DNA from: a virus | Taxonomy: Duplodnaviria > Heunggongvirae > Uroviricota > Caudoviricetes | Reading direction: 5' to 3' (one strand) | DNA: 37,078 nucleotides | Virus record (IMG/VR): IMGVR_UViG_2537562172_000008 | Shown: one piece after another, positions 3,001-27,000 of the stretch | Layout: every line of letters begins with the position of its first letter | Position numbering within the stretch: position 1 is the stretch's first letter | Position numbers: made by a program

Positions 3001-6000
3001 AACCATCGACAGAAGGGTTTTGCATAGCATCGCGAGCACCTATCAGACTAACTCCCTGATGCATAACGTAACCGCCTCCGGTAACCGCGTATTCACGACC
3101 GTCCATATCTATAACTGTTGTGTTTTTGGCGTTTAATTTTGCGCTATCAAAAGCCCATTGCCAGTCCACTACGTCAAGAATATCGCTCACACCCTTGGAG
3201 GTAATAAAGTCTGTTAAGTTTAATTTGTATCCTGGGCGAATTGGATACCACGGTGCTGATGGGATAGATGGCAGATTTCCGCTACCACCGGTGTAGATTT
3301 TATTATTATACCACCACCAGTTATCAACATTAGATAACGCCCCCTCCCGCCATACACCGCCTAACGAGAAATCAAGGCCATATGCGGTGGCTACTTGACT
3401 TAACGATAATTTTGCTCCATCTGAGGCAGCCAACTGAATAAGAACATCAGAAGCAGAACCTGAAGGAGGCAAAACCACTAAAGGATTGCCGATACTATCA
3501 AATGCAACCATCTTATTAGCTCTGGTTTCAGCATCAGGCAAGGATATAATAACTTCTGGAACTCGCAGCGTGCGGATTAAGTTGCTGTTTGCGAGCGTAT
3601 CGACATAATTTTTGGTGGCGGCATCCTGCGGGTTGCAGGGATCGCGCAAATTGCGGATGCAGTTGTTCAGCGCGTCGTACCAGTTCGCAATGCTTGATGG
3701 TTTACGCAGAGCTAAGCGAAAAACGCTATATGCCCGCTGTATAAGCATAGTGAGCTTATCAAAAGCATCCTCATGCACTTCAGCAAAGAACTTACCTTGA
3801 TTGCGCAGATCGGTTTCCTGCGTAACTGGTAGCTCTCGAGATATAGAAATCTGATGACCGCTGGCCAATGCCTTCGACAAAATTACATTGCCACCGTTGT
3901 ATCCACCAGCCCCAGTGACAGTGTAATCAGTATCAAGAGCCAGCACAGCGATATTTTCATCAAGGTCAACCACCTGAACAACCAGGTCGGATTTTTTGAA
4001 AATGCGGAAGGTATACGGAAACGATGTCGTAACGCCATTGCCTGTGTATTCGTTGTGGTCAACTTCGGTTGAGACCGTCATGTTAAATCTCCAGATAGTC
4101 GCAGCACCCGTTGCGCCGCATATCTGGTTATTCTATTACCTGAAAAACCACATATGGATAGAAAGACTGTAAATACGAATAGATATTACCTTTCGGGTAA
4201 TTTACAAAACGTGCTGGATAGCAAACAAATTATTTGATACTGTATAAATATACAGTTATTGCATGGAGAAGATAAGATGCAGCAGTATCACTATCCACTG
4301 GAAGACGGATTTACCGAAAGGATTCACACGCCGGGAGGCGTCAGATCACTGGTGGAGGGATCGCACTTGATGAAATTACTCCGGGATCTCGATAAGGATG
4401 GATTTAATGTCGATGGCCCACTTGCCGAACTGACTGCACTGATTAACTACGTCACCAGCTCACAGATGTCTATGCGGGATCTGCAAACACATCTCGACTA
4501 TTGTGCCGAACAACTACGAAAACAAACCACATAAAGAAAAGGCCGCGAAAGCGGCCTGTGACATGTCACGCTCACGTTATGACAAGCCTATGTACCCTGC
4601 TACACCAGATAATATCAAAATAACTGCAACAGCAAATTCGCCATCGTCAATGATACATTTACGGTTCATAACGCCAAGTGCAACAAGCGCAAACACAACA
4701 AGAATAAAAGCAATCATTTCTCATCCTTATTGCGGAGTGACATCCTGAGGTCGCCACCAGTATGTCTGATTAAACTCTTTCTTCGAACGTTGCTCCATTT
4801 TACGCAAATAGCCTGGTGAAAAATACTCCTGCATCTGGTTAAAGATCATATGATCGAGAGCCGCCTTTAAGTACCAGAGATTCGCACCTGGCATCAAACC
4901 TTTCCCCAGCTTCACCAGATCACCACCAGTCTGCTCACTCTTCCCTTCCACAGCATTTAACGGTATGCCCTGAGCAATCTTCACTACGTCATCAACCAGA
5001 CCAGCTACCGGGCCAAGCATCGACGCCAGCGCGCCGCTTCCGTACCTAGTGTGATCTGACAATAAAAAGTCACCGTAAAGGCCAAGACCACCACCTTTCA
5101 GTAGAGCACCAAGCCAGAATTTTGCGGCATCTTCTCCTGTCATCTCTCGAGGATTACGACCAGACGCAAGGTCGTTAAGTTGCTGCGACAAAGCGCCAAG
5201 AATGGTCGTACTGACAATAAACGTCGCAATATATGCCGCACGACCACCAGCAGACGGCATACCCATAGCGCGTGACCAGTGACGCATAACAACCGAGATA
5301 GGGAACGATTTAAACAGGAAAACACTTCTCGTTAATTCACCTTTCCATGTTCCACGCTGAATACCAGAACCGGTTATCAGCTGCTCACGTGCTCCAGGTG
5401 TAATAACAGCCATATCAACTTCTTCAGTTACGGCACCGAGCAGTTTACGCATTGCCTCAAATTTCACGCGTTCAGGCTCACCAAGATGTTTAACTGCTGA
5501 ATCAGGGATACGCATAATGCTTTCCGGTGTCAGCATCGTATTATTGCCGTTCCCCCAGTCCTCCTGTTGCGCCAGCTTCCATACGCTCCAGTCTGTGTCA
5601 GTAATCCCTTTGCTTTTCAGGATGCGAAAATCAGAATCATCGAGGCTACGAAGGTCTGGTGTCCGTGACACTACTTCTCCCAGGCTTCCCATCATGGTTA
5701 CACCATAGGCGCGCTTGTGCGCATCTGACCATGCTGTAAGCCCACTGGCACGCATTACCGCCGTTGCCGCCCAACGAGACACTGACGGCCCCATATTATC
5801 CATCGCCCAGCGGTTAACGCTGCCAAGTAGAGATTCCATCGCCAGACCAGCGCGGCGCGCCCGCGCAAGTTCTGTACGGTTCGTTGGGTCCATAGCTTCA
5901 AGCTGGTTGCGGAATAACTGGTTCATTGGAAGGTTGGTCACCTTCGCAGACAGATACATGGTCCCAAGATCAGAGAACGATGACAGCAACGCGGAACCGA

Positions 6001-24000: not shown

Positions 24001-27000
24001 TCAAAACCCATCAAATTCATCATGCATAATCTACTCGTGACATGTCACACTATTAATTTCGTTTCATGCCAGCCTTTAGTCACCCAGCATTGCGAGTCAC
24101 CATTACACGGGCATGAATTCACAGGAACTCTCTCGCCGCACTTACCGCAACGTTTTCTGCTGATCGATTTTATACGCCCGTGCACGCGTGCATCATCCTG
24201 GCGGATCAGTAACGCTATATACTCACCAAATTCGTAAGGCGCACGCCCGGGGCGACGCGTGGCACAGTTACGCTCCAGCATTTCAATTTCCTGAGCATCA
24301 AGCACAATCTCCAGCTTACGCACACCAGATGCAGCTTGTCTGGCTCTCTGAGCGGCTTTGCGCTCTGCTGCTGATTTAGCCATTCTGATTTTCCTGCATC
24401 ATGAGAAATACAATCATGGCGGCTCGGAGTGGATTATTCGCATGAAAGCAAATGTTCTCGGCATTAAAAACAGCTGACCACTCACCGCGAGATTGGTGGC
24501 AGGTTAGACTGATTTTATTATCAACAATAATAGGCCATGCATCCGATGGATTATTGCAGTAGTCAGGTAAAGGGTTTAATGGCTCAAAAGTTGTATCAGC
24601 ATTTCCGTAATACCATTTGTTGGTGTTATTCCCTGATGTTTCCGGTTTACATGCCCAAAGGCCTTTAAAAATTATGTCTCCTACCATTCTGTTAATTTCA
24701 AAATCACTTAACTGTGAATAGTCCATCATTTCGCCTCCTGCGGCGGCTCCGGTAGCGGCATCCAGTGAGTTATTTCATGGGCAAGGATATCTGAGCTAAG
24801 TTCCGTCCAACTATTCCAATACCCAGATTCATCCCACCATTTAACCTCGACATGCTCGCCGTCGGTCACTAACACATCAGCATACCCTTTCGGCATTCGC
24901 TCACTACAGCTTATCCAACTATCCGGAGTTCCCGGAGAGTTGCCATTTACATCGAAGTTTGGCTCTGCGTCCTGAACCAGGAGGATGTAACCATTCTTGG
25001 CAGTATCAAGTTCTAACGCCTCGGTGACGGTGCCGAAATAGCGATTACCTAAATCAGCATCACAAGTGCTTACATCAATGGAAACTTCCATGCCCTCGAT
25101 TAATTCTGGCAAGTTGTAAGTTTGGCTTACAGGCTCGACTTCCAGCGATGCCAGAGCAATTTCATAAGCCCGACGCTCAATATTGTCTCGGACGTCCAGG
25201 CTGCCGATTCGCTCTCTGATTTCTTTAATCAGTTCTTTGTCGGTTAAAGTGGTCATGCTGCGTTTCCTTCTTTCTTATTAACAATTACACCGTCATATAT
25301 TTCATTAAGGTGTCCTCTTAGCTCCATGCGCCTTAATGCAGATAACATGTAATCGCATTCAACCTGCTTATTCCCGGTAAATGGCTTATCGTCAGGATTA
25401 CCCCAACAGCAATTACCCCTGGGCCATCCATGTACTTTCCGTACTCTTCCGTTAACAACGTGAAGTAATCCCCAGCCGGGAGGTAAATCCTCAACTGAAA
25501 TAATTTCCGGCTCACTAATAAAGAATCGCCAGTCGCCCATGCCAAGTGAGGGATTTTTACGGAAACGCTTTTTTCTATCTGCCAACAAGTCAGCACGAGA
25601 ACACTTCGCCTCTATCAGGCATGATGCTGAATTTCTGAATCCCATAGCATCTGGCTGTTCTCCGGTACTGGTTACAGCAACAAAGCGGTCATGAAAGCAA
25701 ACCTTGAACCCGTTGCGCTTAAGGAACTTGTACGCAATCTGACAGAGTTCGTGGTGTGTTAACGCCATATCACTCTCCTTTGATGCGAATGCCAGCGGCG
25801 CGCTCGGCTTCACTTTGTTCCCAAAACCACTTGTGAAGCGCCATAAGCTTTTCGTCAATCGGTGCATATTTGCGATTAAAGTAGGCCTGAGCATCTTTCT
25901 CAGATTCGTCCGGTAATTCGCCAGGGCCAAACAGTGTGTTATAAATCCATGCTAGTCCGCTCTTAGCGTCGCCAGTTGCCTGCCATTCGATAATGGCAGC
26001 CTGCATGACCAGAATGTTTTTCCCGATTAATAGGTCCAGTTCTTTGTACCGGTTGCGGATGTATGCATTCTCGCTTTGTAATTTTGCGTTGCGCTTTTCT
26101 GAGGCTTCAAGTAACGCCTGCTTATCGCGTAGAGCTTCTTCCAGTTCAGCAACATGGCATTCACTATCAATAAGGTTGTTCTCTGCTGCTTCAAGCTCAA
26201 CACGCAGCTTCCCAACCGTAAGCGCAATCTCCTCGTTCTCCTGGTCGCGTGATTTGATGTATTGCTGGTTTCTTTCCCGTTCATCCAACAATGCCAGCAC
26301 GGTAACTGGACTGGCTGCGGCGATGAATTCAGCATTGGCCTGCTGTTCCATTTGGAAATCTTCATCGAAACCGCTTTCAGGATGCGCTCCTTCAATTCTG
26401 CAAATGGGAAGATATCCAACAACTTCACGATGAATTAGTGCATCACCAGCATCAAGTCTCTCCTCTCCATATTCGAGCGACCACACACCACACGTTGCTT
26501 TCTCTGCCTTTTCACGCAGTGCCTGATAGTTAATCTTGCTCACTGGTTGCCTCCTTTACGAAGCTGGGCGGCGAACTCGTTAAGTGATATGTAGCAATCT
26601 CCAAATGTTAACGAACCGCTCGACTGCATATGCTCCATAGCCATCTCCACGCCCTGCGCCCGTACTTCAGCCAGGAAAGCATCGGTGGCTGGGGTGTCTG
26701 ATTGCAGAGACTTTGCGCGATAGTCATTCCACCCTCTTGCATACATGGGATTAACTTGCACTCCATCTTTTACGCAATATGCCTGACCTCCACGGTTGAT
26801 AACCTTGATTTCGTCCATAGCGCCAGACTTCAGCCCCGCATTCTCCGCCGCCAGCGCATTAGCACGCACCAGTTGCACTTCCAGTTGCGTTGCCAAATCG
26901 CTGATCAGCTTTGCCACACTGCGCATGTCAACGGCACCACATTCTGCTTTCAGTTCCGAAGCCATCTCATGCCCGGCGGCAACTAACCCTTTGATATTAC

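What the first reader, a model, noticed from the sequence alone, without database searches (positions are those of the whole stretch)
4558..24048. Perfect 12-bp palindrome GTGACATGTCAC three times, always between a stop codon and an intrinsic terminator
Seen: identical copies at 4558-4569, 21772-21783 and 24037-24048. Copy 1 is 7 nt after the stop of the last late gene and 1 nt before the late-operon terminator hairpin; copy 2 is 4 nt after the moron gene stop and 4 nt before its terminator; copy 3 overlaps the stop of the gene preceding terS and is 41 nt before that terminator. Any given 12-mer is expected about 0.002 times in 37 kb, so three copies in one architecture are not chance. Inference (alternatives): (a) binding site for a dimeric regulator controlling terminator read-through, which would let late transcription enter terS (copy 3) and the tailspike/conversion genes (copy 1) and substitute for the missing Q-type antiterminator; (b) a boxB-like RNA hairpin (GUGA-CAUG-UCAC) for an RNA-binding antitermination factor; (c) recombination scars marking module junctions. 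The CRP-site resemblance fails on spacing.
Basis: partly seen in the sequence, partly recalled or inferred. Interest (0 to 1): 0.68.

Follow-up and report, generated by a model that had tools for sequence, protein, structure and literature searches.

The report
Phage regulator's conserved DNA binding site
The thrice-repeated palindrome is real and is most likely the DNA docking site of a small, uncharacterised phage protein encoded right next to one copy; this protein-plus-site pair recurs in hundreds of unrelated temperate phages, and its pairing with terminators is peculiar to this phage group.

Summary
GTGACATGTCAC occurs exactly at 4558, 21772 and 24037, each between a stop codon and an intrinsic terminator. 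The window is an epsilon15/phiV10-like prophage. Epsilon15, about 76% identical in DNA, keeps the exact 12-mer at the same three places while the flanks diverge.

The general motif is Y-GTGAC-NN-GTCAC-R. It is tied to one gene, the epsilon15 gp49 / N15 gp46 family (PHROG 536; window 24045-24383, minus strand). In 76 diverse Enterobacterales loci there are 93 copies, against about 1.6 for control motifs. The motif overlaps that gene's stop codon in 38 loci and lies within 30 nt of it in 54. A second, distant set of 82 loci gives the same result. Lambda, P2, P22 and Sf6 lack both gene and motif.

The protein models confidently (pLDDT 94) as a ribbon-helix-helix DNA binder with a Cys4 knuckle. 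Its beta-strand residues co-vary with the site's central dinucleotide. Only about a third of copies lie near a terminator. An RNA-hairpin role is disfavoured.

So this is a regulator-operator pair. What binding achieves is inferred only; a roadblock or insulator at unit boundaries is my best guess. The arms equal matS half-sites, but the spacing differs and the protein shows no sequence homology to MatP.

The parts
24037..24048 (.). Site A: GTGACATGTCAC. It overlaps the TGA stop (24047-24045, minus strand) of the gp49-family gene. This is the 'primary' copy, the one linked to the regulator gene across phage backbones.
24045..24383 (-). gp49-family gene (112 aa; epsilon15 gp49 / phiV10p55 / N15 gp46; PHROG 536). 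It has a predicted ribbon-helix-helix fold with a conserved N-terminal basic helix ([ET]RKxxQRxR) and a Cys4 knuckle (C79, C82, C91, C99). It is the proposed binder of the palindrome.
23978..23995 (-). Intrinsic terminator hairpin GCCGCCAACTATGGCGGC followed by TTTATTTT, 41 nt downstream of site A. It lies between the early-right operon and terS.
23925..23959 (.). Two tandem epsilon15-type repressor operators (ATTACC-N5-GGTAAT-like) between that terminator and the terS start. This is a different palindrome from the finding.
23330..23923 (-). terS. The start at 23923 is taken from homology with the TL-2011b annotation; the longest ORF would start at 24004.
21858..23333 (-). terL (terminase large subunit), convergent with the plus-strand accessory gene.
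21772..21783 (.). Site B: GTGACATGTCAC, between the accessory ('moron') gene stop and the terminator that separates it from terL.
21788..21807 (+). Terminator hairpin AGCCAGCCGATGAGCTGGCT + TTGTTTTAT. It has a good U-tract only in the plus (moron) direction. In the late (minus) direction the hairpin is followed by GTTT and then site B.
21396..21767 (+). Accessory gene of family PF13876 (N4 gp49 / Sf6 gp66). The same family sits next to a motif copy in an unrelated backbone (L101).
4558..4569 (.). Site C: GTGACATGTCAC at the end of the structural-gene operon.
4540..4557 (-). Terminator hairpin AGGCCGCTTTCGCGGCCT + TTTCTTT, with a U-tract only in the late (minus) direction. Site C abuts the side that has no U-tract.
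4577..4717 (-). The last late-operon gene, a 46-aa membrane protein (PHROG 7892; phiV10p21 homologue). Its stop is 7 nt before site C.
4259..4534 (+). A convergent plus-strand gene (PHROG 450) that ends just before the site C terminator.

Best explanation
The 12-mer is the core of a 14-bp DNA site, Y-GTGAC-NN-GTCAC-R. It is most likely bound by a dimer of the small ribbon-helix-helix + Cys4 protein encoded at window 24045-24383 (the epsilon15 gp49 / N15 gp46 family).

Proposed recognition (inferred): the antiparallel beta-ribbon of the dimer reads the centre of the site, and the nearly invariant N-terminal basic helices read the invariant GTGAC arms.

Shown comparatively: gene and site form a portable cassette, with the primary site at or within a few nucleotides of the gene's own stop codon. 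Further copies, 0-2 in most phages and up to 3-4 in a few, sit at other gene boundaries.

In epsilon15-like phages the three copies lie at the ends of transcription units: the end of the early-right operon, the terL/accessory-gene junction and the end of the structural operon. Each is beside an intrinsic terminator.

Proposed function (inferred, roughly 1 in 3): once gp49 has accumulated, the bound protein acts as a roadblock or insulator at unit boundaries. At sites B and C it sits on the side of a one-directional terminator hairpin that lacks a U-tract, where a stalled polymerase would be released. That would make these terminators effective in both directions and limit early-to-late and antisense read-through.

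The 0.6 confidence refers to the site-protein pairing taken together with a boundary-regulatory role. The pairing alone I put at about 0.8.
For: 1. Conservation. The exact 12-mer is at the homologous three sites in epsilon15 and relatives, with diverged flanks. Across 111 unique contexts, information content drops from 2 bits to about 0.1 bit immediately outside the 14 bp.

2. Gene-site linkage.
- In 76 loci from many Enterobacterales genera, 38 have the motif overlapping the gp49 stop codon and 54 have it within 30 nt.
- In an independent distant set of 82 loci, 47 have it at the stop and 5 just upstream of the start, with 82 copies against about 1 expected.
- The same holds in N15 (gene 46), a P2-like Yersinia phage (gp13) and lambda-like Chlobot, none with a terminator. 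The gene and copies of the motif also occur together in Vibrio phage K308, where the nearest copy lies about 230 nt beyond the gene.
- An Aeromonas phage carries a variant, GTGACCGGACAC, four times, one copy just before its own homologue.

3. Specificity. There are 93 copies against a mean of 1.6 (maximum 7) for 59 same-composition arm permutations. Only the 2-bp spacer is enriched (93 against 0-4). Single-mismatch variants are not enriched. Lambda, P2, P22 and Sf6, which lack the gene, have 0 copies.

5. Covariation. Centre GC goes with beta-strand residues 23/25/27 = E-R-R in 36 of 36 pairs. Centre AT goes with K-E-x in 43 of 47. Residues R8, K9, Q12, R13 and R15 of the N-terminal helix are 92-97% conserved, matching the invariant arms.

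6. DNA rather than RNA. Asymmetric centres flip orientation between close relatives. The RNA hairpin is worth -1.2 kcal/mol.

7. Boundary preference. 70% of copies lie at gene junctions against 15% of random positions.
Against: - No binding experiment exists. The pairing rests on co-occurrence, fold prediction and covariation.
- The GC/E-R-R group may be a single clade, so the covariation may reflect few independent events.
- Starting from the motif alone in IMG/VR, 60 of 79 stored pieces had no gp49 in the piece. Many of these are partial contigs or chance hits, but a different binder cannot be excluded.
- About 24 of 158 gp49 loci have no exact motif in the stored DNA, up to 6-10 kb each side.
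- The roadblock/insulator function is pure inference. Most RHH regulators act at promoters, and some copies abut the -35 of LexA-controlled promoters, which would fit a classical repressor or activator role instead. Phages with a single site argue against any mechanism that needs several sites.
Confidence: 0.6

Rival explanations
1. Terminator read-through control. The bound regulator suppresses the adjacent terminators, so that transcription runs from the early operon into terS, and from the structural operon towards the tailspike. It would be a Q substitute.
For: In epsilon15-like phages all three sites are 1-41 nt from a terminator. gp49 occupies the map position of lambda Q, as the last early-right gene before a short terminated region and terS. 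No Q or N homologue was found among the proteins scanned.
Against: About two thirds of copies in other phages have no terminator nearby. N15 and Chlobot carry the cassette as well as a Q-like gene. P2-like phages carry it as well as Ogr. Other epsilon15 terminators, at 7647-7686 and 23242-23272, have no site. Repressor operators precede terS, the portal unit and the tailspike, implying separate promoters. No conserved promoter or pause element surrounds site A: the only match is a weak 9/12, and my own reading of the relatives found nothing conserved.
Confidence: 0.1
2. A host-factor site or mimic. The motif is bound by, or competes for, the host chromosome organisers MatP (matS = GTGAC-RNY-GTCAC) or SlmA (SBS = GTGAGTACTCAC). 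Alternatively, gp49 is a phage analogue that bridges or positions phage DNA.
Against: Spacing is strictly 2 bp. True matS occurs 0 times and the SBS 0 times in 1.39 Mb of these loci. The site centre co-varies with gp49's own beta-strand. gp49 shows no sequence homology to MatP (hhalign probability 0.15%) and lacks the four-helix bundle. Positions 5-8 differ from the SBS. Many phages have a single site, which cannot bridge.
Confidence: 0.12
3. Classical promoter-proximal operator. gp49 is an ordinary repressor or activator of whatever promoter lies next to each site, and the terminators are incidental neighbours in the few non-coding gaps.
For: Most RHH proteins are promoter-binding repressors (established knowledge). 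In L090 and L097 the site abuts the -35 of a LexA-box promoter. The N15 copy at 28550 lies about 25 nt upstream of a TTGACG-18-TAGAGT element facing the antirepressor operon (my reading). Aeromonas, K308, N15 and Chlobot copies lie 10-20 nt upstream of start codons.
Against: Divergent (promoter-type) junctions are no more enriched than co-directional or convergent ones. Many sites overlap stop codons inside operons with no room for a promoter, such as N15 g46/g47, which are 20 nt apart. 28% lie inside coding sequence. In the window, only a weak 9/12 promoter-like match touches a site.
Confidence: 0.15
4. RNA element. The transcribed palindrome forms a small hairpin recognised by an RNA-binding factor, for example through gp49's arginine-rich N-terminal helix.
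For: The sites are transcribed. They often lie in 3' UTRs or just upstream of ribosome-binding sites. The N-terminal helix is Arg-rich.
Against: The stem is 4 bp and worth -1.2 kcal/mol, and it is not in the minimum-energy fold at site C. There is no compensatory variation; the arms are invariant. The 'loop' is the variable part, and its asymmetric versions flip strand between close relatives. The Aeromonas variant breaks the stem. The fold is that of a DNA-binding RHH. Rfam has no match.
Confidence: 0.03
5. Recombination joint. The motif is a short conserved boundary sequence at which modules are exchanged, with no protein-binding role.
For: The flanks on either side of the gp49-linked copy are unrelated between lineages. 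Similarity between the window and its relatives breaks near site C. TL-2011b keeps motif + terminator with a different upstream module. An accessory gene of the same family adjoins a copy in two backbones.
Against: 12 bp is too short for efficient homologous exchange. Exact all-or-none conservation with strict spacing, copies held inside coding sequences and covariation with a neighbouring protein all indicate sequence-specific recognition rather than passive scars.
Confidence: 0.05

Closest known systems
MatP-matS (E. coli Ter macrodomain organiser)
   Different: matS is 13 bp (3-bp centre, RNY). The phage site is strictly 12 bp, with 0 true matS in 1.39 Mb. gp49 lacks the four-helix bundle and coiled coil, has a Cys4 knuckle instead, and shows no sequence homology. 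MatP is a host protein with 23 sites confined to Ter and not linked to its gene. True matS is avoided in prophages.
SlmA-SBS (nucleoid occlusion)
   Same: Both sites are 12-bp perfect palindromes with the same outer four base pairs, GTGA....TCAC.
   Different: The inner four positions differ (GTAC against CATG). SlmA is a TetR-family protein, not RHH. The SBS itself is absent from these loci.
Phage and plasmid RHH repressors and their operators (P22 Arc and Mnt, CopG, TA antitoxins such as MazE, ParD, FitA)
   Same: They share the predicted fold, the small size, the expected dimeric binding of a short (pseudo)palindrome, and beta-strand residues that set specificity.
   Different: Those operators lie in the regulator's own promoter, at the 5' end. 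Here the primary site is at the regulator's 3' end, typically overlapping its stop codon, with extra copies at gene boundaries. gp49 also adds a conserved basic N-terminal helix and a Cys4 knuckle, and matches no RHH Pfam family.
Partition centromeres placed downstream of the binding-protein gene (P1 parB-parS, F sopB-sopC, N15's dispersed sopC sites) and RHH centromere binders (ParG, pCXC100 ParB)
   Different: I noticed no ParA-type partner next to gp49 in the annotated genomes, though this was not surveyed systematically. The sites are single 12-bp palindromes rather than repeat arrays. The cassette occurs mostly in integrating prophages. N15's known centromeres are, from memory, a different sequence.
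Lambda Q / qut late antitermination
   Same: The map position matches: the last early-right gene, then a short region ending in a terminator, then the late genes. Q is also a DNA-binding factor with zinc (established knowledge).
   Different: There is no Q-family similarity and no conserved promoter or pause element around the site. The cassette co-exists with Q-like genes in N15 and Chlobot. Most sites are not near terminators.

Membership tests
Ribbon-helix-helix (RHH) DNA-binding superfamily | A beta-alpha-alpha fold | tested here: met
Ribbon-helix-helix (RHH) DNA-binding superfamily | Dimerisation that pairs two N-terminal strands into the DNA-reading ribbon | not testable with these tools
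   Only monomer prediction was available. The strand is modelled as coil in the monomer, as expected if it pairs only in a dimer.
Ribbon-helix-helix (RHH) DNA-binding superfamily | Strand residues determine operator specificity | tested here: met
   Residues 23/25/27 are E-R-R with centre GC in 36 of 36 pairs, and K-E-x with centre AT in 43 of 47. The caveat is that this may reflect few independent clades.
Ribbon-helix-helix (RHH) DNA-binding superfamily | A match to a curated RHH sequence family | tested here: not met
   There were no Pfam, NCBIfam or PDB-sequence hits, even at E <= 10.
MatP / matS | The site is the 13-bp GTGAC-RNY-GTCAC | tested here: not met
   The spacer is strictly 2 bp: 93 copies, against 1 for a 3-bp spacer and 0 true matS.
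MatP / matS | The protein is homologous to MatP (four-helix bundle + RHH + coiled coil) | tested here: not met
MatP / matS | Sites are confined to the host Ter macrodomain | tested here: not met
   The sites are in phage genomes and linked to a phage gene. True matS is reported absent from 500 prophages.
SlmA / SBS | The 12-bp palindrome GTGAGTACTCAC bound by a TetR-family protein | tested here: not met
   8 of 12 positions match and the inner four differ. The SBS is absent from the loci. gp49 does not have a TetR fold.
Lambda Q-type antitermination | A Q-family protein | tested here: not met
   There are no Pfam, NCBIfam or PHROG antiterminator hits. PHROG 536 is a generic 'transcriptional regulator'.
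Lambda Q-type antitermination | The binding element is embedded in a late promoter with a promoter-proximal pause, upstream of a terminator | tested here: inconclusive
   There is one weak promoter-like match using the motif as -35 (GTGACA-18-CATGAT, 9/12). By my own reading it is not conserved in epsilon15 or the other relatives. A terminator is present downstream only in this lineage.
boxB / nut-like RNA hairpin | A stable stem-loop maintained by compensatory changes | tested here: not met
   The hairpin is worth -1.2 kcal/mol and is absent from the minimum-energy fold at site C. The arms are invariant with no covariation. Asymmetric centres flip. The Aeromonas variant breaks a pair.
CRP site | TGTGA-N6-TCACA | tested here: not met

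The most novel reading that the evidence does not exclude
A widespread phage-encoded counterpart of the host's chromosome-organising site systems. The gp49 family would recognise a hybrid of matS (same arms) and the SlmA site (same length and outer bases). By binding these sites, or by competing with or recruiting MatP, SlmA or MukBEF, it would position, insulate or compact phage DNA, or interfere with host division and Ter organisation during induction. If so, prophages avoid true matS yet carry a private 12-bp version read by their own ribbon-helix-helix protein.
Probability: 0.1. Interest if true: 0.8.

Novelty: new variant of a known kind. Interest (0 to 1): 0.58.

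Why it matters
It gives a testable function, sequence-specific DNA binding, and an exact target to a protein family that is currently 'hypothetical' or a generic 'transcriptional regulator'. That family is present in hundreds of temperate phages and prophages of E. coli, Salmonella, Klebsiella, Yersinia, Pantoea, Xenorhabdus, Vibrio and others, including the O157 typing phages, epsilon15 and N15.

The cassette is unusual in placing the operator on the regulator's own stop codon, and in moving intact between podovirus, P2-like, lambda-like and telomere-phage backbones.

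In epsilon15-like phages it marks three transcription-unit boundaries. It is therefore the obvious handle for working out how early, late and lysogenic-conversion transcription are kept apart in a group with no known late regulator.

The near-identity of the site to matS and the SlmA site raises a specific, cheap-to-test question about cross-talk with host chromosome organisers. The site is not annotated in the epsilon15 or phiV10 records and was not found in the searchable literature.

Tried and rejected
- **Literature.** Searches for GTGACATGTCAC, TGACATGTCA and half-site combinations found no relevant paper. The epsilon15 genome paper (Kropinski 2007) is not held. The ZX5 paper studies the repressor, antirepressor and integrase, not gp49.
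- **Epsilon15 'repressor' sites.** Those annotated in GenBank looked like a lead but are a different palindrome, ATTACC-N5-GGTAAT.
- **Sequence-based family assignment of gp49.** Pfam, NCBIfam, PADLOC, PDB sequences and hhalign against MatP gave nothing.
- **First AF2 model.** A shallow alignment gave pLDDT 69, and its Foldseek search was uninformative. A deeper alignment fixed this.
- **Domain fusions.** The longer family members showed nothing informative.
- **Motif-first scan.** The 14-mer scan returned partial pieces mixed with chance hits, so P(gp49 | motif) could not be estimated.
- **Lineage sampling.** Scans seeded with single Aeromonas or Vibrio homologues found almost no relatives. 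A very diverse alignment had no searchable stretch.
- **Ideas considered and dropped:**
  - A pac/cos signal. The site is near terS in epsilon15 and K308 but not in N15 or Chlobot.
  - A methylation or restriction site. The CATG centre is not conserved.
  - A TGA-C-ATG translational coupling signal. GC-centre sites have no ATG.
  - bZIP-like recognition by the N-terminal helix. The AA/N signature is not conserved.
  - A mobile element end or homing site. There is no second end, and the gene is embedded in an operon.
  - A known RNA family. Rfam found only a tRNA.

Full report
**1. The observation.**
GTGACATGTCAC occurs exactly three times in the window, at 4558, 21772 and 24037, with no other exact copy.
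- Copy 1 is 7 nt after the stop of the 46-aa minus-strand ORF 4577-4717 and abuts a minus-strand terminator.
- Copy 2 is 4 nt after the stop of the plus-strand gene 21396-21767 and 4 nt before its terminator.
- Copy 3 supplies the TGA stop of the minus-strand gene 24045-24383 and lies 41 nt before a terminator.

The consensus scanner finds the same three terminators, and they fold as independent hairpins.

**2. What the window is.**
It is an epsilon15/phiV10-like (Uetakevirus-type) prophage, with its late genes on the minus strand. Site A follows the last gene of the early-right operon (the epsilon15 gp49 / phiV10p55 homologue) and precedes terS. Site B lies between terL and a convergent accessory gene of family PF13876. 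Site C ends the structural operon, opposite a convergent gene.

**3. Conservation.**
Epsilon15 is only about 76% identical to the window in DNA. It carries the exact 12-mer at the three homologous places, with different flanks. phiV10 and Tyrion have two copies each plus a third split by the ends of the record (phiV10's third copy has one mismatch). TL-2011b has two. Neither the epsilon15 nor the phiV10 GenBank record annotates the motif. The 'repressor' sites annotated in epsilon15 are a different palindrome, ATTACC-N5-GGTAAT.

**4. The decisive turn: relaxing the two central bases.**
GTGAC-NN-GTCAC overlaps the TGA stop codon of the gp49 homologue in N15 (gene 46) and in a P2-like Yersinia phage (gp13). 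It follows the homologue in the lambda-like phage Chlobot. None of these three copies is next to a terminator; in N15 and Chlobot the next gene's ribosome-binding site follows directly. N15 and Vibrio phage K308 carry three copies each.

- **First survey.** A scan of one genome per species returned 78 loci encoding homologues at 39-80% identity, from Citrobacter, Klebsiella, Pantoea, Erwinia, Xenorhabdus, Serratia, Yersinia, Pectobacterium and others. In 38 of the 76 loci analysed the motif overlaps the stop codon. In 54 it lies within 30 nt of it. Most of the remaining loci have copies elsewhere within 10 kb.
- **Second survey.** An independent scan seeded from a distant part of the family gave 82 loci with 82 copies, against about 1 expected. 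Of these loci, 47 have a copy at the stop and 5 just upstream of the start.
- **Aeromonas variant.** An Aeromonas phage whose homologue is about 30% identical carries GTGACCGGACAC four times, one copy 13 nt before its own gene.

**5. Controls.**
In the 1.39 Mb of the first survey the motif occurs 93 times. The 59 arm permutations of the same composition average 1.6 and reach at most 7. Only the 2-bp spacer is enriched (93, against 0-4 for spacers of 0, 1 and 3-7 bp). Direct-repeat arrangements, true matS and the SlmA site are essentially absent, and single-mismatch variants are not enriched. Lambda, P2, P22 and Sf6 lack the gene and have no copy. Across 111 unique contexts, conservation falls from complete to background immediately outside a 14-bp core, Y-GTGAC-NN-GTCAC-R.

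**6. The protein.**
Sequence methods say nothing beyond PHROG 536, 'transcriptional regulator'. The family has about 212 clusters at 50% identity, almost all stand-alone proteins of about 110 aa.

**7. Protein-site covariation.**
In 106 gene-site pairs:
- Centre GC goes with strand residues 23/25/27 = E-R-R (36 of 36).
- Centre AT goes with K-E-x (43 of 47).
- The N-terminal helix residues R8, K9, Q12, R13 and R15 are 92-97% conserved, like the arms.

I infer that the ribbon reads the centre and the basic helices read the arms. The caveat is that the GC group may be one clade.

**8. DNA or RNA?**
The RNA hairpin would have 4 bp and be worth -1.2 kcal/mol. It is not in the minimum-energy fold at site C, and no alternative pairing with the terminators appears. 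The arms never co-vary. Asymmetric centres (AC against GT) flip between close Pantoea relatives at the same position. That is what a symmetric dimer on duplex DNA tolerates and what a loop-specific RNA binder would not. Rfam finds only a tRNA-Arg in the window.

**9. Where the sites sit in general.**
70% of copies lie at gene junctions, against 15% of random positions. The enrichment is similar at co-directional, convergent and divergent junctions.

The motif's TGA serves as a stop codon for gp49 and for other genes. Copies also lie inside conserved early genes close to the immunity region of lambdoid-type prophages, where the motif encodes C-D-M-S or R-D-M-S. Only 37 of 112 copies have a terminator-like hairpin within 80 nt. 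The terminator pairing is therefore a property of the epsilon15 lineage, not of the element.

**10. Mechanism.**

*Shown by comparison.* This is a portable gene-plus-site cassette with strict sequence and spacing requirements, together with a neighbouring protein of DNA-binding fold whose specificity residues track the site.

*Inferred.* gp49 dimers bind the sites.

*Further inferred, with low confidence.* In this phage the bound protein acts as a boundary roadblock or insulator. At sites B and C the palindrome lies on the side of a one-directional terminator that has no U-tract, where a stalled polymerase behind a formed hairpin would be released. Site A would limit early transcription entering terS.

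Epsilon15-type repressor operators are strongly over-represented in the window (11 matches against 0.85 expected). They precede terS, the portal unit and the tailspike. Separate late promoters are therefore plausible, and an antitermination relay is not required.

The rivals cannot be excluded without experiments:
- a classical operator beside promoters;
- terminator suppression;
- MatP/SlmA-like organisation or mimicry;
- a recombination joint.

**11. Comparison with known systems.**
The arms equal matS half-sites, and the length and outer bases equal the SlmA site. MatP is itself an RHH protein. Membership fails on every defining test, however: spacing, protein homology and site distribution. 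True matS is reported to be avoided in prophages.

Compared with Arc, Mnt, CopG and the antitoxins, the fold and logic are the same, but the operator sits at the 3' end of the regulator gene. Compared with parB-parS, the placement is similar, but I noticed no ParA-type partner (not surveyed systematically) and there is no repeat array.

I therefore class this as a new variant of a known kind: an RHH regulator with its operator.

**12. Verdict.**
The terminator-read-through, RNA and scar readings are not supported as general explanations. Interest is moderate to high, for three reasons: the cassette is widespread and, in the records and searchable literature checked here, undescribed; its target is exact; and its likeness to host chromosome-organising sites is directly testable.

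Noticed in passing
window 4185-4201, 20783-20799, 23925-23941, 23943-23959, 27416-27432, 27478-27494, 29809-29825, 30521-30537, 30583-30599: A second over-represented palindrome, ATTACC-N5-GGTAAT: 11 matches at up to 2 mismatches, against 0.85 expected. It is the motif annotated as the prophage repressor operator in the epsilon15 GenBank record. Besides the immunity region, copies lie just upstream of terS (a tandem pair), the portal unit and the tailspike. This suggests direct repressor control of each late unit.
   Followed up: partly
window 21121-21197 (+): A tRNA-Arg (anticodon TCT) on the plus strand, upstream of the accessory gene 21396-21767. It is antisense to the late operon and overlaps the minus-strand ORF 21127-21378 (PHROG 4647). 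A terminator-like hairpin at 21361-21376 separates it from the accessory gene.
   Followed up: no
L101:15591-16017 compared with window 21396-21783: The accessory gene family PF13876 (N4 gp49 / Sf6 gp66) adjoins a copy of the palindrome in two unrelated virion modules. In the window the copy is at the gene's 3' end. In L101 it is 25 nt upstream of the gene, between a scaffold-like gene and the major capsid gene. Sf6 itself has the gene but no motif.
   Followed up: partly
L090, L097, L123, L144 (downstream of the gp49-linked site): In several prophages the gp49 site is followed by a promoter carrying a LexA box (for example TACTGTATGTATATACAGT), and in L090 and L097 the site abuts the -35 hexamer. 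The SOS-controlled small gene that follows lies between gp49 and terS.
   Followed up: no
L133:6914, L134:6503, L138:6723, L142:6322, L125:6035, L121:4584, L153:5732: In Xenorhabdus, Morganella and Rouxiella prophages whose gp49 stop lacks the motif, an exact copy is held inside a conserved gene of about 160 aa directly after cro (the cII position). It encodes R-D-M-S, about 3-6 kb upstream of gp49.
   Followed up: partly
L098:232, L101:3890, L103:4164, L104:2039, L106:3487: Another recurrent coding-embedded copy (encoding C-D-M-S) lies in a gene of about 100-135 aa in the early-left operon, near the cI/cro region of lambdoid-type prophages.
   Followed up: no
L005 (N15) 28550 and 33237: N15's two extra copies are worth noting. 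One is about 25 nt upstream of a strong promoter-like element (TTGACG-18-TAGAGT) facing the antirepressor operon (genes 32-30). The other lies inside repA.
   Followed up: no
L007 (Vibrio phage K308) 19491: This is the only true 13-bp matS-consensus sequence seen in any phage examined (GTGACACCGTCAC). It overlaps the stop codon of CDS 19249-19494, in a phage that also has three 12-bp sites.
   Followed up: no
L212:7929-8309 and 8134: In a low-GC (38%) viral contig, a very distant gp49-like ORF (HMM E about 0.01) contains the exact palindrome inside its coding sequence. A second copy sits beside a predicted RHH gene in the immunity region.
   Followed up: no
L001 (phiV10) record junction: phiV10's linear record is opened inside site A. 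The reconstructed copy there reads GTGACATGTTAC, one mismatch, and is the only degenerate copy seen among the close relatives.
   Followed up: no
L193:1644, L230:760, L136:305, L137:343, L140:305, L141:1265: GTGACGGGTCAC recurs inside coding sequence. In L193 and L230 it lies in the conserved N-terminal part of the tail-fibre or tailspike gene. In L136, L137, L140 and L141 it lies in a similar sequence context, but that gene was not identified. It may be a coding coincidence preserved by protein conservation rather than a functional site.
   Followed up: no
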